From positions 167,154,001-167,218,000 of the forward strand of contig NC_086097.1 of assembly GCF_963921235.1 (NCBI RefSeq): a DNA stretch of 64,000 nucleotides, read 5' to 3'. A program made the translations under genes and the position numbers. Positions 7,352 through 61,840 of this stretch are shown here, one piece after another. The notes beneath the pieces were generated by a model. The model worked only from the letters and a program-made list of their open reading frames with translations. It did not search any database and had not been told where the DNA came from. This DNA is from Mobula hypostoma (Eukaryota). Each line of letters opens with the position of its first letter. Within the stretch, counting starts at the first letter, position 1.

Positions 7352-7471
7352 TAATTGATGGAAATTGGATAGCCTCAAAATTAGGTTTAATTTTTATTCC
7401 CCATTTTTTCTTTGTGTAATGCTTTAATCCCTCAGTGAAATGAGCGTAAACTACTTGGTCAGTTTCCAGTA

Positions 7472-8531
7472 GATGTTTCAGGCCAAGACCCTTTGTCAGG
7501 ACTAACTGAAGGAAGAGTTAGTAAGAGATTTGAAAGTGGGAGGGGGAGGGGGAGATCCAAAATGATAGGAGAAGACAGGAGGGGGAGGGATGGAGCCAAG
7601 AGCTGGACAGGTGATTGGCAATGGGGATATGAGAGGATCATGGGACAGGAGGTCCGGGGAGAAAGACAGGGGGGAACCAGAGGATGGGCAAGGGGTATAG
7701 TCAGAGGGACAGAGGGAGAAAAAGGAGAGTGAAAGAATGTGTATATAAAAATAAATAATGGATGGGGTACGAGGGGGAGGTGGGGCATTAGCGGAAGTTA
7801 GAGAAGTCGATGTTCATGCCATCAGGTTGGAGACTACCCAGACGGAATATAAGGTGTTGTTCCTCCAACCTGAGTGTGGCTTCATCTTTGCAGTAGAGGA
7901 GGCCGTGGATAGACATGTCAGAATGGGAATGGGATGTCCCATTCTGACATGTCCCACATCCCATTCCCATTCTGACATGTCTATCCACGGCCTCCTCTAC
8001 TGCAAAGATGAAGCCACACTCAGGTTGGAGGAACAACACCTTATATTCCGTCTGGGTAGTCTCCAACCTGATGGCATGAACATCGACTTCTTGAACTTCC
8101 ACTAATGCCCCACCTCCCCCTCGTACCCCATCCGTTATTTATTTTTATACACACATTCTTTCTCTCTCTCTCCTTTTTCTCCTTCTGTCCCTCTGACTAT
8201 ACCCCTTGCCCATCCTCTGGTTCCCCCCCTCCCTTGTCTTTCTTCCCGGACCTCCTGTCCCATGATCCTCTCATATCCCCTTTGCCAATCACCTGTCCAG
8301 CTCTTGGCTCCATCCCTCCCCCTTCTGTCTTCTCCTATCATTTTGGATCTCCCCCTCCCCCTCCCACTTTCAGATCTCTTACTAACTTTTCCTTCAGTTA
8401 GAACTGACGAAAGGTCTCGGCCCGAAACATCGACTGTACCTCTTCCTAGAGATGCCGCCTGGCCTGCTGCGTTCACCAGCAACTTTGATGTGTGTTGCTT
8501 GAATTTCCAGCATCTGTAGAATTCCTGTTGT
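7472..8531. mobile_element. Fold-back Penelope-like element: inverted duplication of the GIY-YIG C-terminus and pLTR
   Basis: Arms 7472-7937 (-) and 7956-8531 (+) are near-identical inverted copies. Both encode HSHSDMSIHGLLYCKDEATLRLEEQHLIFRLGSLQPDGMNIDF (PLE endonuclease C-terminus). 17-bp TSD TTGGTCAGTTTCCAGTA at 7455-7471 and 8532-8548. Confidence 0.9.
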
Positions 8532-11500
8532 TTGGTCAGTTTCCAGTATATTTTTGGTGTTCTGAATATCTATCAGCTTGACTGCAATGATCCCATGACA
8601 ACAGTTATTGTGACAGATTCAGCAATCAGTGTTGGAACCACACCAAAGCAGCAGTGTTTACTGCCTCAGCTGTGCGGACGACACAGCCTCTCTCCTGAAC
8701 TCTTCAAAGCCAATTTGCTCAACAACAGATGTTAATATTGGTCAGAGAAGTTGTAATCAACACTATCTCATCTTGTTTCCAAATGATCTTAGATATTTTA
8801 AGTGAAATAGAACATGCATAATTATGCGAATGCAGTCCCTAAATGAGACTATAATAATTTAGAGAGATTTCTTTTGTGCTGCAAGTGTAAACGTAGATGT
8901 GTCTTGGATAGAGAAAGCAACGTTACTGTTCTGTAGTTTGGCAAAAATGAAACTTAACGTATATCATTTTGAATTAAGGTGATTGTTTATTAGCACGATT
9001 GCTGCAATCTCGTATTGAAAGGGAACCCATGAATCACTGACAAAACCTATGCCCTGTTTTCTCATGCGCACGCTATATTTTAGATCTTTGCTCAATGGCT
9101 GCACGTTCTTGCAGATGGCTGTTGTACTAAGAACTATGATGCCTTTGTAAATGCAAGATAATCTATTCCAGTTTTTTTTTGCTCAAGTGTAATCCTACCA
9201 TTTCAGCCCTGAAAACATCTGGAGCTTGTTAAATTCTATGGCAGGATGCCTAACTTCTGGACCGCGCTCTCTTTTACAACTTTGCCTCCCAAAATACTAT
9301 CCTTGATCAGCAAAAATCTGACAGAGGAAATATAATATTCTTCAAGTATCAACAATTTGATCAGCTTCCACTAAAACTATGAAACTAAACTAGTGTAGAT
9401 TATTTAGAAGTTTGAGATTTATACAAAATGAAAGCTTTGTAATATGCATGAAATGTTAAATAAAATAATCCTTGTAGCATGTATGTGAGACAGTCGTCGG
9501 ATTTCCAAACCTGTATTATGTAATATTATTCCAATACATAATAATGAAAATCAATAAACTGCAGATGCTGTAAATTTGAAGTTAAAAACAGAAAATGCTG
9601 GAAACACTCAAGTCAGTCAGCATGTGTGGAAAGAAAGACTGCTTATGCTTCAGATCTGAGAGAAACACAGGTTAGTTTTCAGCAGGAGGGAAGGTATGGA
9701 GGGATCAGTGGGACAAAGAAAAGATCTCCATTAGGGTGAGGCCAAGTGGGCCAATGAGAGCAGATACCAGTACATTGAACCTCCCTGTCAGTGTAATTTG
9801 GTGTGCAGAGCTGGCTTGGCTATGGAAACTAAATTTTAAAAGTCTGAGCTAAAATGATGACAGACAATAGTGATTAGTTCTGGTACACAGAAAGAACGAC
9901 AGGGCTACATAAAGAGAATTCAAGATCAAATCCAGAAGGTTGCAGTGGGCTTTCTTTCCACATATACTGCTTGACCTGCCAATATTTCTGACATTGTGTT
10001 TTTATTTCAGTTGGATGTAAAACCATCAGCTCATGTGTTATTTGTTTGTGTAAAAATGTATCTACATAAATATTAAACTAATGTCATTACCATGGATGCT
10101 GTTGATTTATAGTTGAACTGTTTCCCATCTTCCATTACTTGGCCCAACCCCATATATGCCTCAAGTAGTTACCAAGAGACTTCTTAAATGTAGTCAAAAA
10201 CTCTGCTTCCAGCACTCTCTCTGGCAGTGTATTCCAGAAACTCACCACTCTCAGGATGAAAATGCCCATTCAGATCATCTCTCACTCTCCCCCGCTCCCC
10301 ACCCCTTTCTCTACCTTTGATTATACAAATGAGTAGCTTGTGCATTGAAGGGAATTGGATAATCTATGGAAACAGGCAAGTTGTTTATCTACATGTGTAG
10401 GTAAGTTTGAAGTCCAGGTAAGTTTGTGACTGGGGTGTGGAAATGGGAATTAGAAATAACTCCAAAATTGAGGTTTTTCAACTGATCAGAATTCGAATCA
10501 GATTATCACACACACGTCGTAAAATTTGTTGTTTTGCTGCAGTAGTATAATGCAAGACATAAAAATTATGACAAGTTATAAACAATAAGCAAATAATGCA
10601 AAAGAATAGCAAAGTACATTTATGGGTCTACAGACCATTCAGAATATAATCTAAATAGTTGAAGAACTGTCTTTTCAGGTAACAACAACCTACTGAAGAA
10701 ACTGAGTGGAGTTTGGACAATCCAGAGTCTACAATATCCAGAGCCTACAACTCTTCAGTGTAGAGAATTTCAGAGATTCACCATCCTCAAAGAGACCCTG
10801 GAGTTTGTGGAGTGGGACTCAAGCACTCAAGTCTTGAACTGAGAGACAAGAGAGATACATCCCAAGCCATAGCTGTCAGCCAACACTCAATCCCTCCCAA
10901 CCAGCAGAAACCTATCAAACAGTTGACGAAAATGCCCAAGTTTCTTATCTGACTATATCTACCATCCTCAGTCAGAGTCAAAGACTCAGATAGCATACAC
11001 AGAAAAAGGCCCTCCAGCCCATCTGGTCCATGCCAACCAAGATGCCCATCTGAACTAATCCCATTAGTCCCTGCATTTGGACCATATCCCTCTAAAGCTT
11101 TCCTACCTGCCCAAGTGTCTTTTAATGTTGTTTATGTACCTGCCTCAACAACTTCCTCTTGCCACTCATTCCATTTATGGATGAGACTCTGGATGAAAAA
11201 GTTAACCCTCAAGTTTGGGTTAAATTTCTTCATCTCTCACCTTAAAACTATGCCTGCTAGCTCTTGCTTCCCCAACCATGGGAACAGGACTGTATGCATT
11301 CACCAGATGACAGCTTGGTCTCCTGATCAGAAAGTTCTAAACAGAGAATCAGTTAGCAGGATTGAAATGAGACACAGGGGTTAAATGCAAACTGTCAAGG
11401 AATTAGGTTTCTCACCATAAACACATCAGATGTTAAGATCTAGGCCAGTTAACTTCATAAAGAATGCATGGTTTAGCTTCCCATGAGACGTACAACGCCT

Positions 11501-18920: not shown

Positions 18921-20203
18921 GTTTTATAAGGCTGCTTGTAATGGGTTTTAATAACCCTTGGCCTCTCTCCCCTATGAACTCTTGGATCCAGCACTGGCCT
19001 TGACTCATCTATCTTCCTTTGTATGTGCTGTGCTAGAACACTGTGGTTAGTGAAATCCTCACATTTTTGTTAGGCTTATTCATCAATGTGCGGCACCTTG
19101 GACTTCAAGCACGATTTAATCTTCAAGCAGCCAACACCCAAAGGATTGGCAGTAAGACACTCGGCAACTAATTAACACCAGTCAGTTCTCTGGCACCAAT
19201 ACTACTTGCAAAGCCAGAGGCAGAAAAGATTAATATAAAGTAATCAATAATTCATTTAATAAAGAATTCAGGAAAACATGTGGTATGCACTACCATAAAA
19301 AGTGGTTGAGGCAAGTGACATAACCGTGCTTAAAGAGAGATTTAAATGTTTAAATGTTCACAGTACAATCATCTAACCACAATTCTTCTGGCTTAGTAAT
19401 AATGTCCTATAATTTGTTGAAGCTCATTTCTGTTTTAATCCCTTAATTTGAAGCTGTCCACTGATGTTTAAGTCATTTATGTGGATAATGATCAACAATA
19501 ATTCCTGTGGAGCACCATTTATTCTTTTCTGTAAGTCTGAGTAACTAAGTATTTTTTTCTGTAACTAAACATTTAAAGAAGTTCTCTGTAACTAACACTT
19601 TTTTCTACACTCTATTGTTTTCCCTTGTACTACAATGCATGTTGTAAAGAAATTATCTGTTTGCAAGGCATACAAAACAAAAATTTTCACTGTAACTCAG
19701 AACATGTTATTGAACAAGAAAGAATGCAAAAAAGATTTACCAGAATGTTTTCTGAACTGGATGAGGTGCAACTTATAGAAGCAGACGACATCATGAGGGG
19801 CATAGAAAAGGTGAAAACACAGTTTTTCCCCAAAGAGAGGATGCTAAATAAAAGGGTATAGGTGTAAGATTAGAGGAGAGAGATTCAAAATGAGACATGG
19901 GAAAAGCTTGTTCACACAAAGTATATGGGCATTTGGACTGAGCTGATGGAAATAGTGGTTAAGGTGGGCGACTGAGTAGCATTTAAAAGCCATCCAAATA
20001 AACACACTGCCGAAATAAATAGCAACACACTGCCGAGGTTCTGCTAAAGGGTTTTGGCCTGAAACGTCTTTTCCTAGATGCTGCCTGGCCTGCTGAGTTC
20101 CTTCAGCATTTTGTGTATGTTGCTTGGATTTCCAGCATCTGTAGATTTTCTCTTGTTTGGATAGGACAGCTTTAGAGGGCAATGGGCTATCGCAGGAAGA
20201 TGG

Positions 20204-20413
20204 CACCACACATAAAAGTTGCTGGTGAACGCAGCAGGCCAGGCAGCATCTCTAGGAAGAGGTGCAGTCGACGTTTCAGGCCGAGACCCAAGGGTCTCGG
20301 CCTGAAACGTCGACCGCACCTCTTCCTAGAGATGCTGCCTGGCCTGCTGCGTTCACCAGCAACTTTTATGTGTGTTGCTTGAATTTCCAGCACCTGCAGA
20401 ATTCCTGTTGTTT
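20204..20413. mobile_element. Short palindromic PLE pLTR insertion
   Basis: 83-bp arms at 20207-20289 and 20292-20374 (one mismatch) around an AA spacer. The right arm continues into the PLE tail. 12-bp direct repeat GCAGGAAGATGG at 20192-20203 and 20414-20425. Confidence 0.9.
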
Positions 20414-20629
20414 GCAGGAAGATGGGACAGTTTCAGAGGACAGTGGGCCAAATGCAGGAAGATGGAACTAGTTTGCTGGGCAACACAGTCGATATGGATG
20501 AGTTGGGCTGTAGGACCCATTTCCACACTGTACGACTCTGTCACAATAATAAAGCAATTTACCAATTTATCCCCAATCTCTACATTGAATTTTATTATCC
20601 AGTGCACCAAGGAAGAATAGTCAAGGAAA

Positions 20630-22335: not shown

Positions 22336-23562
22336 TAGTCATAGTCATACTTTATTGATCCCGGGGGAAATTGGTTTTCGTTACAGTTACACCATAAATA
22401 ATAAATAGTAATAGAACCATAAATAGTTAAATAGTAATATGTGAATTATGCCAGTAAATTATGAAATAAGTCCAGGACCAGCCTATTGGCTCAGGGTGTC
22501 TGACCCTCCAAGGGAGGAGTTGTAAAGTTTGATGGCCACAGGCAGGAATGACTTCCTATGACGCTCTGTGCTGCATCTCAGAGGAATGAGTCTCTGGCTG
22601 AATGTACTCCTGTGCCCACCCAGTACATTATGTAGTGGATGGGAGACATTAACCAAGATGGCATGCAACTTGGACAGCATCCTCTTTTCAGACACCACCG
22701 TCAGAGAGTCCAGTTCCATCCCCACAACATCACTGGCCTTACGAATGAGTTTGTTGATTCTGTTGGCGTCTGCTACCCTCAGCCTGCTGCCCCAGCACAC
22801 AACAGCAAACATGATCGCACTGGCCACCACAGACTCGTAGAACATCCTCAGCATCGTCCGACAGATGTTAAAGGACCTCAGTCTCCTCAGGAAATAGAGA
22901 CGGCTCTGACCCTTCTTGTAGACAGGCTCAGTGTTCTTTGACCAGTCCAGTTTATTGTCAATTCATATCCCCAGGTATTTGTAATCCTCCACCATGTCCA
23001 CACTGACCCCCTGGATGGAAACAGGGGTCACCGGTACCTTAGCTCTCCTCAGGTCTACCACCAGCTCCTTAGTCTTTTTCACATTAAGCTGCAGATAATT
23101 CTGCTCACACCATGTGACAAAGTTTCCTACTGTAGCCCTGTACTCAGCCTCATCTCCCTTGCTGATGAATCCAACTATGGCAAAGTCATCCAAAAACTTC
23201 TGAAGATGACAAGACTCTGTGCAGCAGTTGAAGTCCGAGGTGTAAATGGTGAAGAGAAAAGGAGAGGAGACAGTCCCCTGTGGAGCCCCAGTGCTGCTGA
23301 TCACTCTGTCGGACACACAGTGTTGCAAGCACACGTACTGTGGTCTGCTAATCAGGTAATCAAGAATCCATCACACCAGGAAAGCATCCACCTGCATCGC
23401 TGTCAGCTTCTCCCCCAGCAGAGCAGGGCGGATGGTGTTGAACGTACTGGAGAAGACAAAAAACATGACCCTCACAGTGCTTGCTGGCTTGTCCAGGTGG
23501 GCGTGGATACAGTTCAGCAGGAAGACGATGGCATCCTCAACTCCTAGTCGGGGCTGGTAGGC
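22336..23562 (-). mobile_element. Rex1/Babar non-LTR retrotransposon, 5'-truncated, young
   Basis: Minus-strand ORFs give FAYQPRLGVEDAI, VRVMF..FSSTFNTI, GAPQGTV.SP.LFTIYT, LQKF.DD, LNVKKTKELVVD, YKYLG and FYESVVASAI. A (catagt)n tail sits at ~22334. GAACTTCA is repeated at 22328-22335 and 23563-23570. Confidence 0.92.
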
Positions 23563-26500: not shown

Positions 26501-27047
26501 GGAAACAGGTAGGATGCAGAAGTACTTAGACAGATTAGGAGAACGGGCAAGAAAGTGGCAAATGAAATACAATGTTGGAAAATGCATGGTCATGCACATT
26601 GGCAGTAGAAATAAATGTGCAGACTATTTTCTCAACGGGGAGAAAATCCAGGCATCTGAGATGCAGAGGGACTTGGGGGTCCTTGGGTAGAACACCCTGA
26701 AGGTTAATTTGCAGGTTGAGTCAGTGGTGAGGAAGGCAAATGCCAAGTTAGCATTCATTTCAAGAGGTCTAGAATACAAGAGCAAGGATGTGATGCTGAG
26801 GCTTTATAAGACACTGCTGAGGTTTCACCTTGAGTATTGGGTACAGTTTTGGGCTCTTCATCTTAGAAAAGATGTGCTGGCATTGGAGAGGGTCCAGAGG
26901 AGGTTCACAAGGATGATTCCAGGGATGAAAGGGTTATCATACGAGGAATGTTTGATGGCTCTGGGTCGGAATTCAGAAGGATGAGGGGGGAAATCTCATT
27001 AAAACCTTTCAAATGTTGAAAGGCCTAGACAGAGTAGATGTGGAAAG

Positions 27048-27510
27048 CAAACACGAGAAAATCTGCAGATGCTGGAAATTCAAGCAACACACACAAAATG
27101 CTGATGGAGCACAGCAGGCCAGGCAGCATCTATAGGAAGAAGTACAGTCGAAATTTCGAGTTGAGACCCTTCATCAGAACTAATGCAAAAAAGAGATAGT
27201 AAGAGATTTGAAAGTGGGAGGGGGAGGGCGGAGACCCGAAATGATAGGAGAAGACAGGAGGGGGAGGGATGAAGCCAAGAGCTGGGAGGTTAATTGGCAA
27301 AAGGGATACAAGGCTGGAGAAGGGGGAGTATCATGGGATGGAAGGCCTTGGAAGAAAGAAAGGGGGAGGGGAGCACCAGAGGAAGATGGAGAACAGGCAA
27401 GGAGTTATTGTGAGAGGGAAAGAAAGATAGATAAATAAATAATAAATTAAGGATGGGGCAACCATCCCTAATTTATTATTTATTTATACCAGCATTTTGT
27501 GTGTGTTAGT
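27048..27510 (-). mobile_element. PLE pLTR insertion with a short inverted second arm, inside CR1
   Basis: PLE tail and purine-rich UTR on the minus strand, folding back near 27460 (aataaattaaggatgg / ccatccctaatttatt). 13-bp TSD TAGATGTGGAAAG at 27035-27047 and 27511-27523. Confidence 0.85.
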
Positions 27511-27809
27511 TAGATGTGGAAAGGATGTTTCCCATGGTGGGAGAGTCTAGGACAAGAGGGCACAGCCTCAGGGTAGAGGGGCATCCATTCAAAACAGAGA
27601 TTTGGTGAAATTTCTTTAGGCAAAGGGTGGTGAATTTATGGAATTTGTTGCCGCATGCAGCTGTGGAGGCCATGTCGTTGGTTGTATTTAAGGCAGAGAT
27701 TAATAGGTTCTTGATTGGACATGGCATCAAAGGTTACGGGGAGAAGGCCAGGAGCTGGGGTTGAGGAGGAGATAGAAAAAAAAGATCAGTCATGATTGAA
27801 TGGCGGAGC

Positions 27810-34090: not shown

Positions 34091-37030
34091 TAACAAACAA
34101 AAGGTGGTAATGTTTGCTTGAATCCAGATTGGAAATGATCTGTGTTTTGGATACATCATTAAAATATCCAATAACGTTTTACTAGCACTAATGGGTTTTT
34201 TCCCCACTTTTTCTGCTTAGTAGGGTTTTTTTATTATCACAAAACGTTTAATCATTAAGATAATGCTTTTTTTCCTTGAGACATTGCAAGTGTTGTTACT
34301 TCGATGTACTCGTGTTACGTTTTTTGAATAATATAATAATAAAAATATTTGAAAAGAAAGAAAAGAGAAGAGCTTTTTACTAGCATATGTCCTTTCTTGA
34401 TTTAAAATGGAGTATGGAGCAATATAGCATGGATAAAGGCCCTTTAGTCCATTTAGTCCATGCTGACTGCAGTGGCCATCCAGTTAGTCCCATTTTCTTG
34501 CGTTCAATCCACATCCTTTCAGGCCACACCAAGTGCGTCTTAAATTATACTACTGCACCCACTTCAACTGCTTCCTCTGGCAGCTCATTCCATACACTCA
34601 CCACCCTTTGCTTCCATTTTAAGTCTTTCCTTTCTCACCCTAAATCTTTGCCACTTGGTTTTGGACTCTGCTACACTAGTGATCCAGATGTTTCTCACGA
34701 TAGGTTCAAGCCAAAAGAAAACAATTTACACAGAGAACGGGTGAGTTCAATGAAGAGTTTTGCCTGAGAACACTGGGAATCACATTCTAGAATCTCGCAA
34801 AACAACAGTTAAGTCGATCTCTGTATGGCTGTCCAAAGAAGAAACTTCAACCCTTGCTTTAAAGAATTAACATAAGAGATGTGCACATCAGCCAAATTAT
34901 TCCTGTCATGTGTTGAAACACCAGTCTGATGGGTGTTTTTCATCTTGTAAAATGATTATTAGTTGCCACATGTGCAATTAGCTTTTATGCTGTGTCATTT
35001 GGCAAAGTCAAAACATGTATTCAGTATTGAGATAGTCCCATAAAGTTATATTGCACTCACGTCACAGAAAGGAACTTCAGCGTTTCCAAAGAAAATACCA
35101 ACTCTGTTTCCCAAAAATCTCATCTGTCAAAACTACTTGGTTGGCTGACCAGCAAGTCAAAATACAAATAAATCTAAATCAAATCGATATAATTAATCAA
35201 AAATAATATAGCAGCAGAATTTTTAAAAACCATTAAAACATGAATGGGACCTCATATAGAAGGGCAAACTTGCTACTAAGGCCCCCAGCTAGTTTTAATC
35301 CCTATATTACTTAAACAAACTTGCATAAACAGTGCAACTTTAGATGTCAAAAAAGCCAAGGCAGTAAATTGAAACGGTATGAAGGAGGGTCCTTCTATGG
35401 TTTGAAAATGCTCACAGACATATTGATATCAACCACAAACAGAAAAATGCTTACACACACAAGTGACAAGAACTTTGTCCATCCTGTTCAGATGTGATTC
35501 AGTCTGTAAGTCCAAAGCAAATTGCTGAGGACACACCTGATATTGGATCAAAGGGCCTCATTCAAATTAGTTTTATGGAATGTAATCATTGTGGCCCAGA
35601 AATAAGCCACTCAACCCATAGAGTTGCTGCCTGTTTGAGCAGTGAAATCCCATCACTTCTGCTTTTCCCCCTTGGTCATCCAAGACTCGATTCGATTCCC
35701 ACTCTTCTTATAATCACTCCCTTCAGCTCATTATTTTGATTCTGTGCCCCACCAATCCTCTCTCTCATTTTTGAATAATCCACCACTGGAAATAGCTTTC
35801 CTATATCTACCCTATCTGCATCACCTGGCCATGTCATCTTCTGAACAATGATCCTCAGTTAAAGGCCCTTGGAGACAGTGAGAAAGTAAAAGAAGAAACC
35901 TTCTGACCATGGTTGGAACCATTCATGAGGCGTGCCATGTTGACTAAGTACCATGGAATCACCCCACCTTTCACATCAGACTCTGTTAGAATTTCTGTGA
36001 TAAGGTAATCAATCAGAACAAATTTGAGACTCAACTAAGGTATAACATTCCTATACTCCCCAGCTTTCATAAAAACTCTCTTGTAATTCCACATCCACAT
36101 TAGTAGATTGTAATTTTGTCCTCCATTTCCAATACATACTATACCCTTCCGTGTCCAAATAATGTTATGTGGTTCTAGTCAGTGCCTTCATTCTTCAACC
36201 CTTTAACTGCCAAGAATTAGAATACAAATTCATGCAAAGCTGTAATAAGAATGTTGGAATTGCCCATCGGAAAGAAGGTCATTAGCTTGAAATGTTGACT
36301 CCACATCTTTCTACACAGGTGCTGCGTGACTCGCTGAGCATTCTTTTAGTCTTTATTATAAACTGAATGTCATTATCATTTGGTCTAAGCACTTACTACA
36401 GTGCAGCATCAGTGATGTGATAAGGATGTTTCCTCTTGTGGAAGAATTTGGAAAATGGGGTCAGTGTTTTTAAAAATAAAAGAGGGTCAGTCATTCATGA
36501 CAGGATAGATATAAAGCTTTTTCTCTGACATTTGTGGCCTTCTTTTGTTGTTAAACCTCTTCTCCAAAAGATGATGGGACTCCAAAAAAAAAGCCAAAAT
36601 GAACTCGATAAGAGAGGATAAAAGGCGACTCTGTGCAGATGGGAAAATTGTAATGAGGTTACAATCAGATCAGCCTTGATTTTATGAAATGATAGTTTAG
36701 GCTCAGCCAACACAAACTTTCAGCAAAATGCAAGTGGCCAGTGAACTCAGTATGTCAGGGAGTATCTGTGGACGCAGGGGCATTGTTGACATTTCAGCTC
36801 AAAATCCTGCCTCAGGACCAAGTGCAAAGGGAAGGAGGTCAATATAAAGCGGTGAGAGGAGGAGTGAATCAGGAGCTGGCAAGAACCCTTCTCCATAACC
36901 TGCATTTGCAGGCCATCTGCCATCTACACTCTCAGTCCTGATGTAGAGTCTTAACCCAAAACTTTGCCTCCACAGATACTATTTAATCTTCAAGTTCTTC
37001 CAGCAGTTTTTATTTCATTCCAGATTACCA

Positions 37031-38545
37031 CATCTACAGTATTGTGTCTACACTCAACAGCATCTACAGTATCGTGTCTACACATTACAACATCTACAGT
37101 GTCGCGTCTACACATTACAGCATCTACAGTATTGCATCCACACTCTGCAACATCTACAGTATCGCGTCCACACTCTGCAGCATCTACAGTATCGCGTCCA
37201 CACTCTACAGCATCTACAGTATCGCGTCCACACTCTACAGCATCTACAGTATCGCGTCCACACTCTACAGCATCTACAGTATCGCGTCCGCACTCTGCAA
37301 CATCTACAGTATCGTGTCCACACTCTGCAACATCGAGTATCGCGTCCACACTCTGCAACATCTACAGTATCGCGTCCACACTCTGCAGCACCTACAGTAT
37401 CGCGTCCACACTCTGCAACATCGAGTATCGCGTCCACACTCTGCAACATCTACAGTATCGCGTCCACACTCTGCAACATCTACAGTATCGCGTCCACACT
37501 CTGCAACATCTACAGTATCGTGTCCACACTCTACAGCATCTACAGTATCGCGTCCACACTCTGCAGCATCTACAGTATCGTGTCCACACTCTGCAGCATC
37601 TACAGTATCGCGTCCACACTCTGCAACATCTACAGTATCGCGTCCACACTCTGCAACATCTACAGTATCGCGTCCACACTCTACAGCATCTACAGTATCG
37701 CGTCCACACTCTGCAACATCGAGTATCGCGTCCACACTCTGCAACATCTACAGTATCGCGTCCACACTCTGCAACATCTACAGTATCGCGTCCACACTCT
37801 ACAGCATCTACAGTATCATATCCACACTCTGCAACATCTACAGTATCGCGTCCACACTCTGCAACATCTACAGTATCGCGTCCACACTCTGCAACATCGA
37901 GTATCGCGACCACACTCTGCAACATCTACAGTATCGTGTCCACACTCTGCAACATCTACAGTATCGCGTCCACACTCTACAGCATCTACAGTATCATATC
38001 CACACTCTGCAACATCGAGTATCGCGTCCACACTCTGCAACATCTACAGTATCGCGTCCACACTCTGCAGCATCTACAGTATCGCGTCCACACTCTACAA
38101 CATCGAGTATCGCGTCCACACTCTGCAACATCTACAGTATCGCGTCCACACTCTGCAGCATCTACAGTATCGCGTCCACACTCTACAACATCTACAGTAT
38201 CGCGTCCACACTCTACAACATCGAGTATCGCGTCCACACTCTGCAACATCTACAGTATCGCGTCCACACTCTGCAGCATCTACAGTATCGCGTCCACACT
38301 CTACAACATCTACAGTATCGCGTCCACACTCTACAACATCGAGTATCGCGTCCACACTCTGCAACATCTACAGTATCGCGTCCACACTCTGCAGCATCTA
38401 CAGTATCGCGTCCACACTCTACAACATCTACAGTATCGCATCCACAGTATCGCGTCTACACTTTACAGCATCTACAGTATCGTGTCTCTCTACAGCATCT
38501 ACAGTATCGCATCTACACATTACAGCATCTACACTATCGTGTCTG
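37031..38545. repeat. 30-bp minisatellite CATCTACAGTATCGCGTCCACACTCT(G/A)CA(A/G), ~50 units, with a 28-bp variant
   Basis: Directly visible tandem array. The 28-bp variant CATCGAGTATCGCGTCC... starts at 37331, 37419, 37717, 37895, 38013, 38101, 38219 and 38337. Confidence 0.97.
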
Positions 38546-38889
38546 CACACAATCTTCACACTTTACTCGCAGTAAGTTCCCCCACATTTCATAGAGTGCG
38601 GTAGTTCCACTTCCAACCTCGCACCGCGCGCCCCCCCCCCCAATCCCCGCAAGCAACTGCTACTTTTGGCTGTGCAAAATAAATCCACCATTTTTCCCAT
38701 TTGTCAGTCTCTCCCTCCCCCTCCAATCCTGTTCAGTATTTTCCACTTTCCCTGTCATCTAACCTCTCATCTTTCTCATTTCCAATCGTCTCACTTCATT
38801 TCCCCAAATAACACGTACACCAAATTCATGAAAGAAGTTATGTATTGAAGTTATCTTTGTATTGTTGGTTTCTAATTATGATTATGATT

Positions 38890-48299: not shown

Positions 48300-50148
48300 G
48301 AAACGTGGTCAGGTGTCAGATCTCTCAGTGGGAGAGCATCTTAGAGATAGTGATCACAATTCTATCTCCGTTAACATTGTATTGGAGAGGGATAGAAACA
48401 GACAACTTAGGAAAGCGTTTAATTGGAGTAAGGGGAAATATGAAGCTATCAGGCAGGAACTTGGAAGCATAAATTGGGAACAGATGTTCTCAGGAAAACG
48501 TACAGAACAAATGTGGCAAATGTTCAGGGGATATTTGCATGATGTTCTGCATAGGTACATTCCAATGAGACAGGGAAAGGATGGTAGGGTACAGGAACTG
48601 TGAAGTACAAAGGCTGTTGTAAATCTAGTCAAGAAGAAAAGTAAAGCTTACGAAAGGTTCAAAAAACTAGGTAATGTTAGAGATCTAGAAGATTATAAGG
48701 CTAGCAGGAAGGAGCTTAAGAATGAAATTAGGAGAACCAGAAGGGGCCATGAGAAGGCCTTGGCGGACAGGATTAAGGAAAACCCCAACGCACTCTACAA
48801 GTATGTGAAGAGCAAGAGGATAGGACATGAGAGAATAGGACCAATCAAGTGTGACAGTGGAAAAGTGTGTATGGAATCGGAAGAGATAGCAGAAGTACTT
48901 AATGAATACTTGGTTTCACTATTCACTATGGAAAAGGACATTGGCGATTGTAGGGACGGACTGAAAAGCTTGAGCATGTAGATATTGAGGAAGAGGATGT
49001 GCTGGAGCTTTTGGAAAGCATCAAGTTGGATAAGTCACTGGGACCGGACGAGATGTACCACAGGCTACTGTGGGAGGCAAGGGAGGAGACTGCTGAGTCT
49101 CTGGTGATGATCTTTGCATCATCAATGGGGACAGGAGAGGTTCTGGAGGATTAGAGAGTTGCGGATGTTGTTCCCTTATTCAAGAAAGGGAGTAGAGATA
49201 GCCCAGCAAATTATAGACCAGTGAGTCTTACTTCAGTGGTTGGTAAGTTGATGGAGGAGATCCTAAGAGGCAGGTTTTATGAACATTTGGAGAGGCATAA
49301 TATGATTAGGAATAGTCAGCATGGCTTTGCGAAAGGGCAGGTTTTGCCTTACGAGCCTGATTGAATTTATTGAGAATGTGACTAAATACATTGATGAAGG
49401 TAGAGCAGTAGATGTAGTGTATATGGATTTCAGCAAGGCATTTGATAAAGTACCCCATGCAAGGCTTATTGAGAAAGTAAGGAGGCATGGGATCCAAGGG
49501 GAACTTGCTTTGTGGATCCAGAACTGGCTTGCCCACAGAAGGCAAAGAGTGGTTATAAATGGGTCATATTCTGCATGGAGGTTGGTCAGCAGTGGTGTGC
49601 CTCAGGGATCTGTTCTGGGACTCATACTCTTCGTGATTTTTATAAATGACCTGGATGAGGAAGTGGAGGGGTGGGTTAGTAAATTTGCTGATGACACAAA
49701 TGTTGGGGGTGTTGTGGATAGTGTGGAGGGCTGTCAGAGGTTACAGCGGGACATTGATAGGATGCAAAACTGGGCTGAGAAGTGGCAGATGGAGTTCAAC
49801 CCAGATAAGTGTGAAATGGTTCATTTTGGTAGGTCAAGTATGATGGTAAGACTCTTGGCAGTGTGGAGGATCAGAGGAATCTTGGGGACACTCAAGGCTG
49901 CTGTGCAGGTTGACTCTGTGGTTAAGAAGGCATACATTGGCCTTTATCAATCGTGAGATTGAGTTTAAGAGCTGAGAGGTAATGCTACAGCTATACAGGA
50001 CCCTGGTCAGACCCCACTTGGAGTACTGTGCTTAGTTCTGGTGAGTCTAGGTAATTTCTAAGGTAAGGATATGTTCAGCACAGCTTTGTGGGCCGAAGGG
50101 CTTGTATTGTGCTGTAGGTTTTCCATGTTTTTATGTTTCTATGTTTCT
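48300..50148 (+). mobile_element. CR1 LINE: end of the endonuclease domain through RT, with an internal 3' deletion
   Basis: SDHNSI, IKENP..LYKYVKSKR, YMDFSKAFDKVPH, SGVPQGSVLG, SKFADD and WQMEFNPDKC. (tatgtttc)n tail at ~50120-50148. Inserted in the tail of a Rex1 fragment (47985-48299). Confidence 0.92.
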
Positions 50149-52039: not shown

Positions 52040-52465
52040 CAAACATGAGAAAATCTGCAGATGCTGGAATTTCAAGCAACACACATAAAAGTTGCTGGTG
52101 AACGCAGCAGGCCAGGCAGCATCTATGGGAAAAGGTACAGTCAACGTTTCGGGCTGAGACCCTTCGTCAGGACTAACTGAAGGAAGAGTGAGTAAGGGAT
52201 TTGAAAGTGGGAGGGGGAGGGAGAGATCCAAAATGATAGGAGAAGACAGGAGGGGGAGGGATAGAACCAAGAGCTGGACAGGTGATTGGCAAAATGGATA
52301 GGAGAGGATCATGGGACAGGAGGTCCGGGAAGAAAGACAAGGGGGAGGGGGGAAGCCCAGAGGATGGGCAAGGAGTATAGTGAGAGGGACAGAGGGAGAA
52401 AAAGGAGAGAGAGAAAAAGAAAATATATATAATGAATAAATAAATAACGGATGGGGTACAAGGGG
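52040..52465 (-). mobile_element. PLE pLTR/3' UTR copy
   Basis: Near-identical to the reverse complement of 8105-8531; contains a hammerhead motif. Confidence 0.88.
52139..52174 (-). ncRNA. Minimal type I hammerhead ribozyme motif (PLE-associated)
   Basis: Minus strand AGTC-CTGACGA-AGGGTCTCAGCCC-GAAA-CGTT-GACT: stem I AGUC/GACU, CUGANGA and GAAA cores, palindromic ACGU stem III and a GUU cleavage triplet. Confidence 0.65.
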
Positions 52466-54293
52466 TCAAATGTTCATGAGACAACAGCTTAATTGCCTGT
52501 GTAACATTAACCTAGCTACACCAGAAACATAAGTGCCACCTCAGAATCTACAAACCTGCAGTGGAAGCAAGTCACCCTCTGATCCAAGACACTGTCTCAG
52601 ACCAAGCGAAAAAATGTTAAATTTTTATCCAAGAATCCTTCTAAGGCATAGTCTTCGCTGCTACAGTCAGGACCACAAGGTGTATCATGCTTTTATTGTA
52701 AAGCTTTAAATGGTCTCAACATAATCAGAGTAAATCTTTCACTGTGGTGGGTTGTTAATTACTTGGAGATGAGTATCACTTTAGTACAGCTGCAGTTCCA
52801 AACCTTTATCCTAGCACTTTGTAAGTTGTGCAAATAGTAAATGACAGGCTTCAAACACGCACACACAAAATGTCCTTTCCTAGATTCTGTCTTTATAAAT
52901 GCCTGCCTGCATATAATTTTTCAACAAAGGACTACTGCAGTCAATCAACGAGTTCTATACCATAATATATTTTCCATACACTGAGAAGGCAGCTGTTGAC
53001 TGCATCTTTATGAAGGTATCAAATGAATCAACAGAAGTTGTAATACAATGCAGTAACTAAGCAACCTACACAGTTTGACATCAGTTAACATCACACCTCA
53101 TAATTTCGATTTTGGTTTGTATGGAAAGTCTAAGGCTGAGCATTAGCCATCCTTCTGACAGTGTGGGTGGGAAGAAATGCTGTTCCACAAACTATTACCA
53201 CGTACAGCTCACCTGATGCAACCTTCAGGTCAGTCTGTGAACAGGTGATCAGCCCGGCCACTTGTTAAAAGCAAATCAGGCCACTTAATCTAACTGCAGA
53301 TCCACAAACTGACGATCTTCAGTTACATCACATGGGAATGGAAGAGCCAGGCATGGATTCCCATTTGTGTCGGGTTGGGCTGACCCTTTCAAGAGCTCCC
53401 TTAAATATTCTCATTCCGCATAAAAGATTGGGGAACTCATCCTTGGAAGTTATGTACAGAACTGTGGATGCTGCAGATCAGACACAAACAGAGAAAAATT
53501 ACTAAAAATGTTCATCAGGTAAGTCAGCATTCATGGAGAAAGGGACTGGGTTAACAGGGCCAGTTGATGACTTCCCAGCAGAACATTTCATGAAAGCATA
53601 GACCCCAGCGGTTATTCTGTTTCACTTTCTACAGGTATTACCTGACCTGTCAAGCATTACCAACATTTACAAAGTCATCCTGCATCAAGCACAGAGGAAA
53701 ATCAGTCAAATTAAATTTTGCATGCAGAAGATGCTGCAGATTCTGGAATATGGAGTAACAGATAATCCGCTGGTAGAAATGAGCAGGTCAAGCAGCATCT
53801 GTGGGAGGAACTGCTGATGTTGGGACCAAAACCCTGTATGACGACTGAGAGTGGAGACATGATAATCAGTATGGGTAGAAGGGGAACATGAGAAAGGAGT
53901 CCAAGGTAACTGGGGAATTGAGAGGGATGTACAACGTTAAATTATGCTCCGGTCTCTGCAAAATTGTCCTTTAAAAATGACACAAAACAGGAAAATTTGT
54001 AAGCACTTGGCAATGCAATCTATGGGTGAGAAATTATGTCTCCTAGGGCGATCTTGAGCTTCTAGTTATCAGCCACTTCAAAGCTCTACCTCACCTCCAT
54101 TCTGACTTCCCTCTTCAGCCTCCTCATTACTCTGCTGCCTAACTTAGGCTCGAAAACAGCACCATTTCATCTATCTAGACACATTACAGAATTTAAAACA
54201 AAATAAATAAATTAGGAAATTACAATTTTTTCCCTTTCTCCACAAATGTGGTCAAACCTTCTCCATTAAAATTTACTTCTTTATTCTCTAAAT

Positions 54294-54844: not shown

Positions 54845-56588
54845 CAAAGTGAAAATAAATCCAAAGGGTTTCTACGGTTATGTTAGTGGCAAAAGGATAG
54901 TGAGGGATAAAATTGGTCCCTTGGGAGAATCAGAGTGGACGGCTATGTGTGGAGCCAAAAGGCGGGGGGGGGGCAGATTTTGAACAATTTCTTTTCTTTG
55001 GTATTCACTAAGGAGAAGGATATTGAATTGTGTAAGGTAAAGGAAACACGTAGGGTAGTTATGGAAAGTATGACAATTAAAGAAGAGGAAGTACTGGCAC
55101 TTTTAAGAAACATAAAAGTGGGTAGGTCTCTGGGTCCAGACAAGATATTCCCTAGGACTTTGAGGGAAGTTAGTGTAGAAATAGCAGGGGCACTGACACA
55201 AATATTTCAAATGTCATTAGAAACAGAAATGGTGCCGGAGGATTACCGTATTGCTCATGTAGAGATGGTATATATAATTTTCTGGATAGACAGGGTCTGA
55301 TTAGGAACAGTCAACATGGATTTGTGCGTGCAAGGTCATGTTTGACAAATCTTATTGAATTTTTTGAAGAGGTTACTAAGAAAGTTGACGAGGGTAAAAC
55401 GGTGGATGTTGTCTATATGAACTTCAGTAACGCCTTAGACAAGGTTCCACACGGAAGGTTAGTTAGGAAGGTTCAATCGTTAGGCATTAATATCGAAGTA
55501 GTAAAATGGATTCAGCAGTGGCTAGATGAGAGACACCAGAGAGTAGTGGTGGATAACTGTGTGTCAGATTGGAGGACGGTGTGTAGCGGTGTGCCTCAGG
55601 GATCTGTACTGGGTCCAATGTTGTTTGTCATATATATATATATATCAATGATCTGGATGATGGGGTGGTAAATTGGATTAGTAAGTATTTAGAGGGTGTT
55701 GTGGATGATGAGGTAGGTTTTCAAAACTTGCAGAGAGATTTAGGGCAGTTAGAAGAGTGGGCTGAAAGATGGCAGATGGAGTTTAATGCTGAAAAATGTG
55801 AGGTGATACATTTTGGTAGAACTAATCAAAATAGGACATACATGGTAAATGGTAGGGCATTAAAGAATGCTTTAGAACAGAGGGATCTAGGAATAATGGT
55901 GCATAGTTCCCTGAAGGTGGAATCTCATGTGGATAGGGTGATGAAGAAAGCTTTTGGTTTGCTGGCCTTTATTAATCAGAGCATTGAGTATAGGAGTTGG
56001 GATGTAATGTTGAATTTGTATAGGGCATTGGTAAGGCCAAATCTGGAGTATTGTGTACAGTTCTGGTCACCAAATTCTAGGAAAGGTGTCAATAAAATTG
56101 AGAGAGTACAAAGGAGGTTTACTAAGATGTGCCTGGGTTTGATCTCCTAAGTTACAGAGAAAGGTTGAACAAGTTAGGTCTTTATTCTTTGGAGTGTAGA
56201 AGGTTGAGGGGAAACTTGATAGAGGTGTTTAAAATTATGAGGGGGATTGATAAGAGTTGACGTGGTTAGACTTTTTCCATTGAGAGTGGGGAAGATACAA
56301 ACAAGAGGACATGGGTTGAGAATTAGAGGACAAAAGTTTAGGGGTAACATGAGGGGGAACTTCTCTACTCAGAGAGCGGTAGCTGTGTGGAACGAGCTTC
56401 CAGCAGAAGTGGTTGAGGCAGGTTCGATGTTGTCGTTTAAAGTTAAATTGGATAGATATATGGACAGGAAAGGAATGGAGGGTTATGGGCTGAGTGCAGG
56501 TCGGTGGGCCTAGGATAGGGTAAGAGTTCGGTGCAGACTAGAAGGGCCGAGATGGCCTGTTTCCCTGCTGTAGTTGTTATATGGTTAT
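54845..56588 (+). mobile_element. CR1 LINE, 5'-truncated, RT and complete 3' end
   Basis: ORFs 54935..55300, 55324..55671, 55665..56150 and 56247..56513 (SCLTNLIEFFEEVT, DKVPH, GVPQGSVLGP, RPNLEYCVQFWSP, TRGHGL). gttatatggttata tail. Confidence 0.92.
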
Positions 56589-57948
56589 ACGGGATCCAAG
56601 ACACATAAGCCTGAAAGCATGTACTACCCTGCTCAAGGACAGCTTCTATCGTGCTATTAAAAGACTACTGAACAATCCACTAGCACGATACAGATGGACT
56701 CTTGGCCTCACAATCTACTTCATTATAGTCTTACACTTTGCCATTTGCCTGCACTGCACCTTCTCTGCAACTGTGACATTTGATTCTGCATTCTGTTGTT
56801 GCTTTTCCCCTCTACTGCTATGATGAAATGATCTGTACAGATGGCATTGTGACAATAATAAAACTATTTGGCAAAACTGGTTGAAAACAAGTCACTTACA
56901 ACGTGACCAGCCAGTAAATATATCAGGGTTGGCTCCTTGATAAAGCTCCTGCCAGAAAAGTTAATTGCAAATGATTACATTCATTTAATATCCCTCTTTT
57001 TCCTTTGATCCCAACATCCACAGCTGGCTTGCACACGCCTTTATTCCCTTGTTGCTTTCTCAACTCACTAATTTCTGTACCTCACAACCTTTATATCTGA
57101 GAAAATGATCTCAAACGTACAATCGCCAAAAATTCTGACTCTAATATTGCTCTCAACAAGTTGACATGACCTTAGCACCACAAACATCATTTAGTTAGTT
57201 TTGATTTTCTCATCAGTCTATAGAGAGGCACCTATTCTTCCAGTCACCTGGAACACATTTCAGTGAAGCTCATGAATCGGAAACAATACTCGGCTTCCAT
57301 CTTGGCCCAGTGAGAATTTCCAGTATTTTTTGCTTTTATTTTACATTTCCAACATCTGGGTGTGCTTCCTTTTGCTTTGGAATAAACAAGAGTATATTAA
57401 ATAACATTATTTGGCACAGAAAGTGTGCCAAATGCATGCTTCAGGATGCTGGTGCTGGGAAATGTGAACACTTGGTCTGCTTTTAACAGCCAACTGAAAA
57501 GTAAGTAGTGAAAAGGGAGGATTTTGAAGGGATGGCAATGGTTGCATCTCTCCAGTGCTTTGAGGTGCCAACAGTTGGCCTGCGAACACAGAGAGGGATA
57601 TCGAAAGCCAGAGAGCTTTTCTACCCAGTAGACCAGGAGTTCCAAGTGTGAATCCTTGATCATCAAATAACTGTACACTCAATTAACTGAAGGCTGTGCT
57701 GGCACATTCTACCCAGTATCTACTTTGCTAAGAGCTGGCTCTCAAGATTAAAGAAAAATTGGTCCATGTGTTTCCAAGTTCTCATCATGAAACATAGAGC
57801 AGTGTTGTGCAAGGGGAGGGCAAGAGCACAATTTTGGTATACGTCAAATCCTCTAGTTTCTAGCATCACTGCACTCTAGCTTCAGTGAGGTGGTCAACAA
57901 TGGCTTGGAGCTTCATCCACACACTGTGACTCGACCAACGGGGATCCT

Positions 57949-58119
57949 GGTCTTCTCCTATCATTTTGGATCTCCCCCTCCCCCTCCAACTTTCAAATCC
58001 CTTACTCACTCTTCCTTCAGTTAGTCCTGACGAAGGGTCTCGGCCTGAAACGTCGACTGCACCTCTTCCTATAGATGCTGCTTGGCCTGCTGCGTTCACC
58101 AGCAACTTTGATGTATGTT
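57949..58119 (+). mobile_element. ~170-bp PLE pLTR-only insertion
   Basis: Matches the PLE 3' end at 8328-8495. Flanked by the 9-bp direct repeat GGGGATCCT (57940-57948, 58120-58128). Confidence 0.85.
58023..58058 (+). ncRNA. Minimal type I hammerhead ribozyme motif, best-preserved copy
   Basis: AGTC-CTGACGA-AGG(GTCTCGG)CCT-GAAA-CGTC-GACT: stem I AGUC/GACU, intact CUGACGA and GAAA, stem II AGG/CCU and palindromic ACGU. The GUC triplet predicts a cut after 58054. Confidence 0.75.
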
Positions 58120-58726
58120 GGGGATCCTTTAATCTTAGTTCTGTGTGTGGTCACTCGGGATTAAACATTCATTGTAAAGATTAGCTCCACAACCAAAGGA
58201 AACTTGTTGGAGATGAGGAGAAACATTATAGCAAGTAAGAACTGAGAAAAGTGTTGGGGCAATAATGCAGTCTTGTTTGGCACTGCTCTTAAAGTTATAG
58301 AGAAATACAGCATGGAAGCATGTCCCATATCCTTCTTAATAGAGAAACTGGTTTATTGATTTTACATACGCCCGGGTACAGTGAAAAACGTTGTTTTGCA
58401 TGCTATCCATACAGATCATTTACAGACAAAGTGATCCAAACACCCAAAGCATTTCCTCTCTATATACCTATCCAAATGTCCTCAAAATCTCTTCAATAAC
58501 ATCAATTCAATTGCAGGCACGTTGGTTAACATTCTAGTGTGCATGTTTTTGGGATCAAGGTAACCCCTTATAATTACTATTAGGTTAGATCTGAAAGTTA
58601 TTCTTTCAACCATAAAGTAACCATAGCTACTCATAACCGAATTGTAAATTCAGTCTTCACAAACTGATTAACAATTTCATTGCAATCAGCAGGCACTGGC
58701 AATCTTAATTCACCCATCTCATAGTC

Positions 58727-60577: not shown

Positions 60578-61840
60578 CAGAATCGGGTGTATTATCACTG
60601 GCATGTGATGTGAAATTTGTTAACTTAGCAGCAGCAGTTCAATGCAATACATAATCTAGCAGAGAGAGGAAAACAAAAATAAAATAAAACATAATAATAA
60701 GTAAATCAGTTACATATATTGAATAGATTTTTTTAATGTGCAAAAACAGAAATACTGTATATTAAAAAAAGTGAGGTAGTGTCCAAAGCTTCAATATCCA
60801 CTTGGGAATTGGATGGCAGAGGGGAAGAAGCTGTTCCTGAATCACTGAGTGTGTACTTTCAGGCTTCTGCATCTCCTACCTGATGGTAACAGTGAGAAAA
60901 GGGCATGCGCTGGGTGCTGGAGGTACTTAATAATGGACGCTGCCTTTCTGAGACACTGCGCCCTAAAGATGTCCTGGGTACATTGTAGGCTAGTGCCAAA
61001 GATGCAGTTGACTAGATTTATAATCTTCACACGAGGAAATCTGCAAATGCTGGAATTTCAAGAAACACACATAAAAGTTGCTGGTGAATGCAGCAGGCCA
61101 GGCAGCATCGCTAGGAAGATTTTTCGTCTCACTGACGTTGAGTGCCAGGTTGTTGCTGCGGCACCACTCCACTAGTTGGCATATTTCACTCCTGTCACCA
61201 TCTGAGATTCTACCAACAATGGTTGTATCGTCAGCAAATTTGTAGATGGTATTTGAGCTATGCCTAGCCAAACAGTCATGTACATATAGAGAGTAGAGCA
61301 GTGGGCTAAGCACACACCCCTGAAGTGCTCCAGTGTTGATCGTCAGCAAGGAGGATATGTCATCACCAATCCGCACAGACTGGTCTTGCGGTTAGGAAGT
61401 CGAGGATCCAACTGCAGAGGGAGGTACAGAGGCCCAGGTGCCCAGGTTCTGCAACTTCTCAATCAGGATCGTGGGAATGATGGTATTAAATGCTGAGCTA
61501 TAGTCGATGAACAGCATCCTGACGTAGGTGTTAGTGTTGTCTAGGTGGTCTAAAGCTTTATGGAGAGCCATTGAGATTGCATCTGCCATTGACCTATTAT
61601 GATAATAGGCAAATTACACTGGGTCCAGGTCCTTGCTGAGGCAGGAGTTCAGTCTAGTCATAACCAACCTCTCAAAGCATTTCATCACTGTCGATGTGAG
61701 TGCTACCGGGCAATAGTCATTAAGGCAGCCCACATTATTCTTCTTAGGCACTGGTATAATTGTTGCCTTTTTGAAGCAAGTGGGAACTTCTGCCTGTAGC
61801 AGTGAAAGATTGAAAATGTCCTTGAATACTCCCGCTAGTT
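60578..61840 (-). mobile_element. Rex1/Babar retrotransposon with a PLE tail fragment at ~61028-61117
   Basis: [32 protein letters not shown], NTGAxQGCVLSPLLYSLY, KFADDTTIVG and LFSLLPSGRR. Confidence 0.9.

What the first reader, a model, noticed from the sequence alone, without database searches (positions are those of the whole stretch)
57940..58128. Retrozyme-sized PLE insertion carrying an apparently intact minimal hammerhead ribozyme
Seen: a ~170-bp non-coding insert bounded by a 9-bp TSD, containing AGTC-CTGACGA-AGG..CCT-GAAA-CGTC-GACT with all core nucleotides. Established: Penelope-like elements carry minimal type I hammerheads in their pLTRs, whose short palindromic stem III is thought to work as a dimer; animal non-LTR retrozymes are similarly small. 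Inference: this is a potentially active self-cleaving RNA, and pLTR-only units may be mobilised on their own in this lineage.
Basis: partly seen in the sequence, partly recalled or inferred. Interest (0 to 1): 0.7.

Follow-up and report, generated by a model that had tools for sequence, protein, structure and literature searches.

The report
Truncated Penelope retroelement copy with hammerhead
This is a 171-base end-piece of a very common jumping gene (a Penelope-like element) inserted at one site of what is likely a ray's genome; it carries that family's already known minimal self-cutting RNA motif, which is predicted to be inactive on its own, so it is most likely an ordinary dead copy.

Summary
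There is a 171-bp insert (57949-58119) between 9-bp repeats, and two related organisms have the empty site. It holds a minimal type I hammerhead with every core base; my descriptor hit 2 sites in the window and none in 300 shuffles.

The retrozyme reading is not supported. The insert is the 3' part of the pLTR of a Neptune-type Penelope-like element (PLE). A longer copy in the window runs into a GIY-YIG ORF end, 94% identical to a Mobula protein. Across 11 window matches the 5' starts scatter over about 490 bp, while 3' ends pile at two sites about 36 bp apart. That is the known PLE signature of 5' truncation plus two reverse-transcription starts.

The copy is single, has no same-strand partner nearby, closes stem II with G·U, and is predicted to misfold in context. 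Cleavage was not tested, and no genome-wide end count was possible. Rfam finds no hammerhead here. The scan reached a similar verdict on another genome (e1-9988673). Ordinary.

The parts
57940..57948 (+). Left copy of the 9-bp target-site duplication; its last 4 letters (TCCT) also match the family's sequence just upstream of the break (possible 5' microhomology)
   Evidence: single copy at the empty site in X6 and X9
57949..57949 (+). One G not matching the family (untemplated base or substitution) at the 5' junction
57950..58119 (+). 3' part of the pLTR (3' UTR) of a Neptune-type PLE, sense strand; 5'-truncated; ends at the tail-less 3' site (58119/58120, one G shared with the TSD)
   Evidence: 91-94% to longer copies at 8327-8496 and 52078-52247; alignment; coordinates
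58008..58020 (+). Pyrimidine tract predicted to pair with 58027-58038, hiding the core and stem II
   Evidence: pair probability 0.85 here and 0.67 in the 52247 copy; absent in two more mutated copies
58022..58059 (+). Minimal type I hammerhead: stem I 5 bp, core CUGACGA, extra A58034, stem II 58035-58046 closed by G·U, GAAA, no stem III loop
58050..58053 (+). ACGT palindrome (positions 15.1-16.1); can form stem III only between two ribozyme copies
   Evidence: sequence; PMC4209133
58054..58055 (+). Predicted cleavage site, after GUC (C17)
   Evidence: standard hammerhead numbering; not tested
58120..58128 (+). Right copy of the target-site duplication
7455..8548 (.). Reference copy of the parent family: 5'-inverted PLE insertion; ORF C-terminus 7956-8105 (GIY-YIG end), pLTR, hammerhead, tail to about 8535; 17-bp exact flanking repeat
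52040..52472 (-). Longer family copy with tail; the only other site passing the hammerhead descriptor (G10.1-C11.1, GUU triplet)
20192..20425 (.). Head-to-head inverted pair: one arm tail-less, one tailed; 12-bp TSD
27035..27523 (.). Older inverted insertion; short arm ends at the tail-less site; 13-bp TSD
61029..61119 (-). Family copy truncated below the hammerhead, with tail

Best explanation
The insert is the last 171 bases of a Penelope-like element's terminal repeat, most likely left by an ordinary reverse-transcription event that stopped early, and its minimal hammerhead is predicted to be a silent passenger here. SHOWN: an insertion with a 9-bp duplication, absent at this site in two related organisms; sequence continuous with a PLE ORF end in a longer copy; scattered 5' ends and two shared 3' ends among copies; an intact core. 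INFERRED: (1) The RT/GIY-YIG protein of an autonomous Neptune-type element nicked the target with a 9-nt stagger. (2) It began reverse transcription at the tail-less of two internal start sites, about 65 nt below the ribozyme cut site. (3) It copied through the uncut (or re-joined) hammerhead and stopped after about 170 nt, probably annealing to the target by 4 bases of microhomology. (4) In the parent element the hammerhead likely works as a dimer between tandem pLTRs, perhaps with help from the element's protein. This lone copy has no partner in cis and would not cut.
For: Parent element: the ORF end at 7956-8105 is 94% identical to P0001 (Mobula hypostoma). P0001 has a GIY-YIG match (E 0.00046, below Pfam's cut-off), a YIDD RT motif and a linker C-x4-C-x2-C. 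Its full-length relatives carry RT and often GIY-YIG domains. Ends: the 11 of 15 nhmmer matches with E<1e-7 start at reference positions 7956, 7956, 8110, 8179, 8320, 8326, 8404, 8408, 8412, 8431 and 8445. Seven end at 8531-8535, two at 8498-8499, one at 8512 (8499 by BLAST) and one at 8448. Two RT starts 30-40 nt apart, giving an optional tail, are shown for the Anolis PLE (PMC11167929). TSDs of 9, 12, 13 and 17 bp flank four loci. Runs: loose ends at 57950 are short (median 10-12) and spell upstream pLTR sequence (agreement 0.72-0.78) in all 4 runs; at 58120 they are long and mixed (median 255, agreement 0.41-0.44 in X2 and X6). Silence: the active dimer scores -11.5 kcal/mol against -22.0 for two misfolded monomers; stem I probability is 0.08 or less in all 12 context folds; published minimal hammerheads gave no monomer cleavage.
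Against: No whole genome was held, so the end distribution rests on 11 matches in one window and on 24 of 996 loose-end rows. A median loose-end length cannot exclude a minority of copies starting at 57950. One diverged copy (824-1007) starts within 6 nt of the same position by nhmmer (8320), although its likeness continues upstream. Nearest-neighbour energies leave out the tertiary core and proteins; the Anolis PLE hammerhead cut only when protein was added. U11.1 is common in this family (6 of 10 window copies, two of them arms of one insertion), so it is not proof of damage. Five of nine loci searched showed no convincing TSD at first pass; one was found later.
Confidence: 0.86

Rival explanations
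1. The template was a non-autonomous, pLTR-only master (a tandem pLTR array or its circular RNA, a few hundred bases per unit) copied in trans by the PLE protein. This insert would be a truncated copy of that master rather than of a full-length element.
For: 9 of the 11 window matches hold no ORF sequence, and two loci begin just after the stop codon (about 8117 and 8126). Summed depth over the element is five to six orders of magnitude above the flank (the tool warns this is no copy number). A head-to-tail joint 58113 to 58027 has depth 209.6 against about 10 for unique flank in X2 (table 5c). Non-autonomous PLE derivatives are published (PMC8557442 passage; bioRxiv 10.64898/2026.07.22.740005).
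Against: Heavy 5' truncation of full-length PLEs gives the same picture. The 7956-8535 copy, 91% identical to the insert, carries ORF sequence. The partial-tandem joints shown re-enter at varied points (58010, 58024, 58027, 58086), as PLE partial tandems do.
Confidence: 0.09
2. The 171-bp piece is itself a fixed-length retrozyme monomer that self-cleaves, circularises and is mobilised as a unit.
For: Its size is at the low end of animal retrozyme RNAs (about 170-400 nt; PMC7229834). The core is complete, there is a TSD, and retrozymes derive from pLTRs. One Chondrichthyes genome has tandem retrozymes (mean 363 bp).
Against: It is not in tandem. No other close copy starts at its 5' end. No 58119-to-57950 joint appears among the joints shown (15 of 42 in table 5, 12 of 44 in table 5c). 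Its fold is no more stable than shuffles (z -0.10). It has a minimal rather than canonical hammerhead.
Confidence: 0.03
3. This copy cuts a host transcript that reads through it, by pairing in trans with another of the very many family copies.
For: The core is intact. Family sequence is present in contigs of run X18, which is only guessed to be RNA. Copies are very abundant.
Against: Only a 4-bp palindrome and two 5-bp stems hold the dimer, and misfolds are predicted to win. Even cis dimers cleave poorly: 1 of 9 Xenopus dimers was active, and activity was low for Schistosoma. The site is empty in two relatives, so it is not conserved.
Confidence: 0.02

Closest known systems
Endonuclease-bearing Penelope-like elements, Neptune clade: 5'-truncated pLTR copies (PMC8557442; PMC3846280; PMC11167929)
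   Same: pLTR following an RT/GIY-YIG ORF; linker zinc-finger-like motif; 5' truncation; inverted 5' arms; optional tail of about 36 bp; variable TSDs; hammerhead in the pLTR on the sense strand
   Different: A batoid family that I did not find described (searches; Repbase and Dfam could not be checked). This copy holds no ORF sequence.
Minimal hammerheads (min-HHR) of metazoan PLEs (Cervera and De la Pena 2014, PMC4209133)
   Same: Type I, no stem III loop, palindromic 15.2-16.2, extra base between 9 and 10.1, short stem I, mostly single genomic motifs from truncated PLEs
   Different: G10.1·U11.1 instead of the conserved G10.1-C11.1; stem II of 4 bp rather than the 7-8 bp of the Schistosoma examples
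Animal non-LTR retrozymes (PMC7229834; bioRxiv 10.64898/2026.07.22.740005)
   Same: Small, non-coding, type I hammerhead, pLTR-related, TSD longer than 4 bp
   Different: Single copy, not a tandem repeat; ends set by PLE reverse transcription rather than by unit length; no strong self-paired fold; no circular RNA shown

Membership tests
EN+ Penelope-like element (fragment of) | pLTR continuous with a single ORF of RT plus C-terminal GIY-YIG | tested here: met
   Met through the longer copy 7956-8535, P0001 and its full-length relatives; the insert itself has no ORF
EN+ Penelope-like element (fragment of) | Variable 5' truncation with fixed 3' ends | tested here: met
   11 window matches; loose ends. 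One window only, not genome-wide
EN+ Penelope-like element (fragment of) | Optional 30-40-bp tail (two 3' ends) | tested here: met
   3' ends at reference 8498-8499 and 8531-8535; further tail-less arm at 27507
EN+ Penelope-like element (fragment of) | Inverted or partial-tandem pLTR arrangements in the family | tested here: met
   Three inverted insertions in the window
EN+ Penelope-like element (fragment of) | Target-site duplication on insertion | tested here: met
   9 bp; empty site in X6 and X9
Neptune clade | Zinc-finger-like linker between RT and EN | tested here: met
   C-x4-C-x2-C at P0001 residue 236; pattern in 44 of 71 fetched proteins; shared with Nematis
Neptune clade | RT tree placement with named Neptune elements | not tested
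   No named reference RTs held; Neptune chosen because Neptune and Poseidon are the clades reported in vertebrates
Metazoan PLE minimal hammerhead | Complete core, NUH triplet, stems I and II, no stem III loop | tested here: met
Metazoan PLE minimal hammerhead | Palindromic 15.2-16.2 and extra base between 9 and 10.1 | tested here: met
   CG in ACGU; A58034 unpaired
Metazoan PLE minimal hammerhead | G10.1-C11.1 pair (highly conserved, not invariant) | tested here: not met
   G·U in this copy; C in 4 of 10 window copies and in 75% of depth in X9, 20-24% in X2, X6 and X18 (X2 flagged as undercounted)
Metazoan PLE minimal hammerhead | Covariation in the stems | tested here: inconclusive
   9 window copies: 80.8% paired against 14-42% when slid, but no excess over shuffles (255/500 and 369/500); several rows are decayed or poorly aligned
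Metazoan PLE minimal hammerhead | Cleavage as a dimer | not testable with these tools
   needs in vitro transcription
Animal non-LTR retrozyme | Tandem repeat with a hammerhead in each unit | tested here: not met
   single unit; no array at this locus
Animal non-LTR retrozyme | Fixed unit length shared by copies | tested here: not met
   table 7; window-level and partial only
Animal non-LTR retrozyme | Stable self-paired fold of the unit | tested here: not met
   z -0.10 for the linear unit
Animal non-LTR retrozyme | Expressed linear and circular monomer RNA | not testable with these tools
   no raw RNA reads were listed; contigs cannot show RNA ends

The most novel reading that the evidence does not exclude
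In rays this family spreads mainly from non-coding pLTR-only masters, making it a SINE-like, ribozyme-bearing PLE derivative at very high copy number. Its hammerhead is held off by an upstream pyrimidine tract (58008-58020) until the element's protein refolds it.
Probability: 0.09. Interest if true: 0.45.

Novelty: new member of a known kind. Interest (0 to 1): 0.14.

Why it matters
As it stands it matters little: it is one more truncated PLE copy with the hammerhead that all canonical PLE pLTRs are reported to carry. Two modest uses remain. The insertion is present in organism A and absent in B and C, so it is a clean lineage marker. The family is very abundant, with two sharp 3' ends, so it suits genome-wide tests of whether hammerhead cleavage plays any part in PLE transposition, which is still open (PMC11167929 found it dispensable in vitro). 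If pLTR-only masters drive the amplification, it would be a large vertebrate case of the PLE-to-retrozyme transition.

Tried and rejected
Rfam: three scans gave no hammerhead family; the weak PrrB_RsmZ, mir-611, STnc380 and sR43 matches are far below gathering scores and were rejected as chance. No whole genome is held for this window. The metagenome scan with a 19-base core pattern gave 11 loci, all GC-rich (0.58-0.75) and matching only over the pattern, so rejected as chance. Pfam on the two 49-residue ORF ends: nothing, too short. Solved structures for P0001: nothing significant. No RNA holder was listed, and all runs were contigs, so expression, strand and RNA ends could not be examined; zero depth on the unique flanks in X18 is no evidence. 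Position 58054/58055 is not among the 24 loose-end rows shown of 996; this is too partial to use. The A10.1-U11.1 register of stem II was rejected. A 7-bp repeat at the 52040 locus lies inside the tail and was not counted as a TSD. Four weak nhmmer matches (E 1e-4 to 0.11) were left out of the end count. One literature search was swamped by hammerhead sharks. Lunse, Weinberg and Breaker (RNA Biol) is not held. A look-up of earlier findings by sequence gave nothing. I did not identify a host gene around the insert.

Full report
OBSERVATION. The window reads GGGGATCCT at 57940-57948 and again at 58120-58128, with 171 bases between. Public runs confirm an insertion. In X6 (organism B, study P2) a 1527-base contig covers both flanks and skips 180 bases, with 9 letters fitting either side. 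In X9 (organism C, study P3) one contig passes from the left flank to the right flank with nothing between. X2 may be the source of the window and is not independent; it shows both junctions and no empty allele among the rows listed. The flanks differ from organism B at 11 of 665 aligned bases (1.7%). The insert differs from its close window relatives at three private sites (57988, 58082, 58115; 3 of 170), which fits an insertion around or after the A/B split.

THE RIBOZYME MOTIF. Stem I is 58022-58026 with 58055-58059, the core is CUGACGA, GAAA is followed by CGUC, and the predicted cut is C58054/G58055. Stem III has no loop, only the ACGU palindrome. My descriptor found 2 sites in the window and 0 in 300 shuffled windows. 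Rfam finds no hammerhead, which I attribute to the missing stem III (inference). Cervera and De la Pena list an extra base between 9 and 10.1, a G10.1-C11.1 pair and a palindromic 15.2-16.2 as marks of metazoan PLE minimal hammerheads. This copy has the first and third and lacks the second. U at 11.1 is common in the family: 6 of 10 window copies, two being arms of one insertion. C is read in 75% of depth in X9 and 20-24% in the other three runs, X2 being flagged as undercounted. Related families share only 58023-58058 with this one: loose ends with different flanks pile at both edges of stem I in all four runs, and depth peaks over the ribozyme in the three DNA runs. So the motif is conserved at family level. 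Covariation among 9 window copies was inconclusive.

WHAT IT BELONGS TO. The insert matches many places in the window. The longest, 7956-8535, begins with 49 codons that are 94% identical to a Mobula hypostoma protein (P0001) and 81-85% to four Hypanus sabinus proteins (8 of 8 candidates); the host is therefore likely a ray (inference). Three of four of these proteins scanned show a GIY-YIG match below Pfam's cut-off. P0001 has a YIDD RT motif and a cysteine linker, and 63 longer relatives mostly carry an RT domain, many also GIY-YIG. This is the single-ORF PLE layout. The linker motif marks Neptune or Nematis, and Neptune is the one reported in vertebrates; no tree was built. The hammerhead lies on the ORF's strand in the 3' pLTR.

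ENDS. In the coordinates of that copy, the 11 of 15 nhmmer matches with E<1e-7 start at 7956, 7956, 8110, 8179, 8320, 8326 (the finding), 8404, 8408, 8412, 8431 and 8445; two pairs are arms of one insertion each. Seven end at 8531-8535, two at 8498-8499 (the finding and the inverted arm at 20203), one at 8512 (8499 by BLAST) and one at 8448. A further short inverted arm ends at the tail-less site at 27507. The match starting at 8320 is a 73%-identical older copy whose likeness continues upstream. Three insertions are head-to-head inversions, and TSDs of 9, 12, 13 and 17 bp were found at four of nine loci searched. Frangieh et al. showed that the optional 30-40-bp tail is the stretch between two internal RT start sites. 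Craig et al. describe heavy 5' truncation, inverted arms and the tail as general PLE features. In the runs, records reaching 57950 carry short loose ends that spell upstream pLTR sequence, while at 58120 loose ends are long and mixed. Only 24 of 996 rows were shown, so a minority fixed-start subfamily is not excluded. At the 5' junction the target's last four bases equal the family's four bases before the break in two of three copies, followed by one extra G; microhomology at PLE 5' junctions is reported.

HOW IT LIKELY WORKS. The protein of an autonomous element nicks the target and primes at the tail-less site about 65 nt below the ribozyme cut. It copies through an uncut or re-joined hammerhead and stops after about 170 nt; repair leaves the 9-bp duplication. 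All of this is inferred by analogy. The lone ribozyme should be silent. A single Schistosoma minimal hammerhead gave no cleavage and dimers gave little; 1 of 9 Xenopus dimers cleaved; the Anolis one needed protein and was not needed for insertion. Here the other descriptor-positive copy is on the opposite strand, and the same-strand copies lie 37 kb or more away and are broken. The isolated motif is predicted to pair its core G5-G8 with C15.2-C17; two such monomers (-22.0 kcal/mol) beat the active dimer (-11.5). In context, the tract 58008-58020 is predicted to pair with the core and stem II; stem I probability was 0.08 or less in all 12 folds. The same alternative hairpin appears in the 52247 copy but not in two more mutated ones. 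These energies leave out tertiary contacts and proteins.

COMPARISON AND NOVELTY. It works like, and files as, a truncated PLE pLTR copy with a minimal hammerhead. It fails the retrozyme tests that could be run: tandem units, fixed length and stable fold. That retrozymes derive from pLTRs, and that most PLE insertions leave one truncated terminal repeat, is in a 2026 preprint that also includes one chondrichthyan genome. Its supplements were closed and may list this family. Searches for a shark or ray PLE hammerhead paper found none; subscription journals, Repbase and Dfam were not searched.

PAPERS SEEN. bioRxiv 10.64898/2026.07.22.740005: parts 1-3 of 5 (abstract to discussion). PMC4209133: parts 1-2 of 4. 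PMC11167929: parts 1-2 of 4. PMC7229834: part 2 of 6 and passages. PMC8557442, PMC6765202, PMC3846280, PMC6155905 and PMC11300833: passages only. Lunse et al. (RNA Biol): not seen, known only through PMC6765202. No supplements were read. Hammerhead numbering and the NUH rule are from my own knowledge.

VERDICT. A real, well-delimited, lineage-specific insertion with a real ribozyme motif, both of known kinds. Interest 0.14.

Noticed in passing
window 1-1007: A 38-bp minisatellite (1-765) abuts a diverged pLTR copy and matches pLTR sequence at 64%; it likely grew out of a pLTR.
   Followed up: partly
window 58027-58113 (table 5c): A head-to-tail joint from 58113 back to 58027 has depth 209.6 in X2, against about 10 for unique flank; a tandem of about 90 bp that includes the hammerhead may exist elsewhere in organism A.
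   Followed up: no
window 58023-58057 (table 5): A joint going back 35 bases, i.e. a direct duplication of the hammerhead alone, appears in X2, X6 and X9; such a locus could form a natural cis dimer.
   Followed up: no
window 58008-58038: An upstream pyrimidine tract is predicted to pair with the core and stem II in this copy and the 52247 copy; it could be an off-state or a chance fold.
   Followed up: partly
window 58046-58047: C-to-T is frequent at this CpG, while no G-to-A row at 58047 is among the 40 of 63 rows shown; this hints at a source subfamily with U11.1 rather than decay alone.
   Followed up: partly
window 37030-38548: A 30-bp minisatellite of about 48 copies (90% matches) giving long open frames in three frames.
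   Followed up: no
window 7725-8168: Inverted arms of 213 nt at 97% complementarity, 18 nt apart: the inversion point of the reference PLE insertion.
   Followed up: yes
window 58352-58450 and 58253-58318: Two other repeats in the right flank (depth up to about 14,000 and about 100).
   Followed up: no
window 24600-26700, 48300-49960, 54900-56150; 22480-23370, 60990-61840; 5340-6750: Decayed LINE reverse-transcriptase remnants; by recalled likeness CR1-type, L2/Rex-type and RTE-type. The copy at 61029-61119 sits inside one of them.
   Followed up: no
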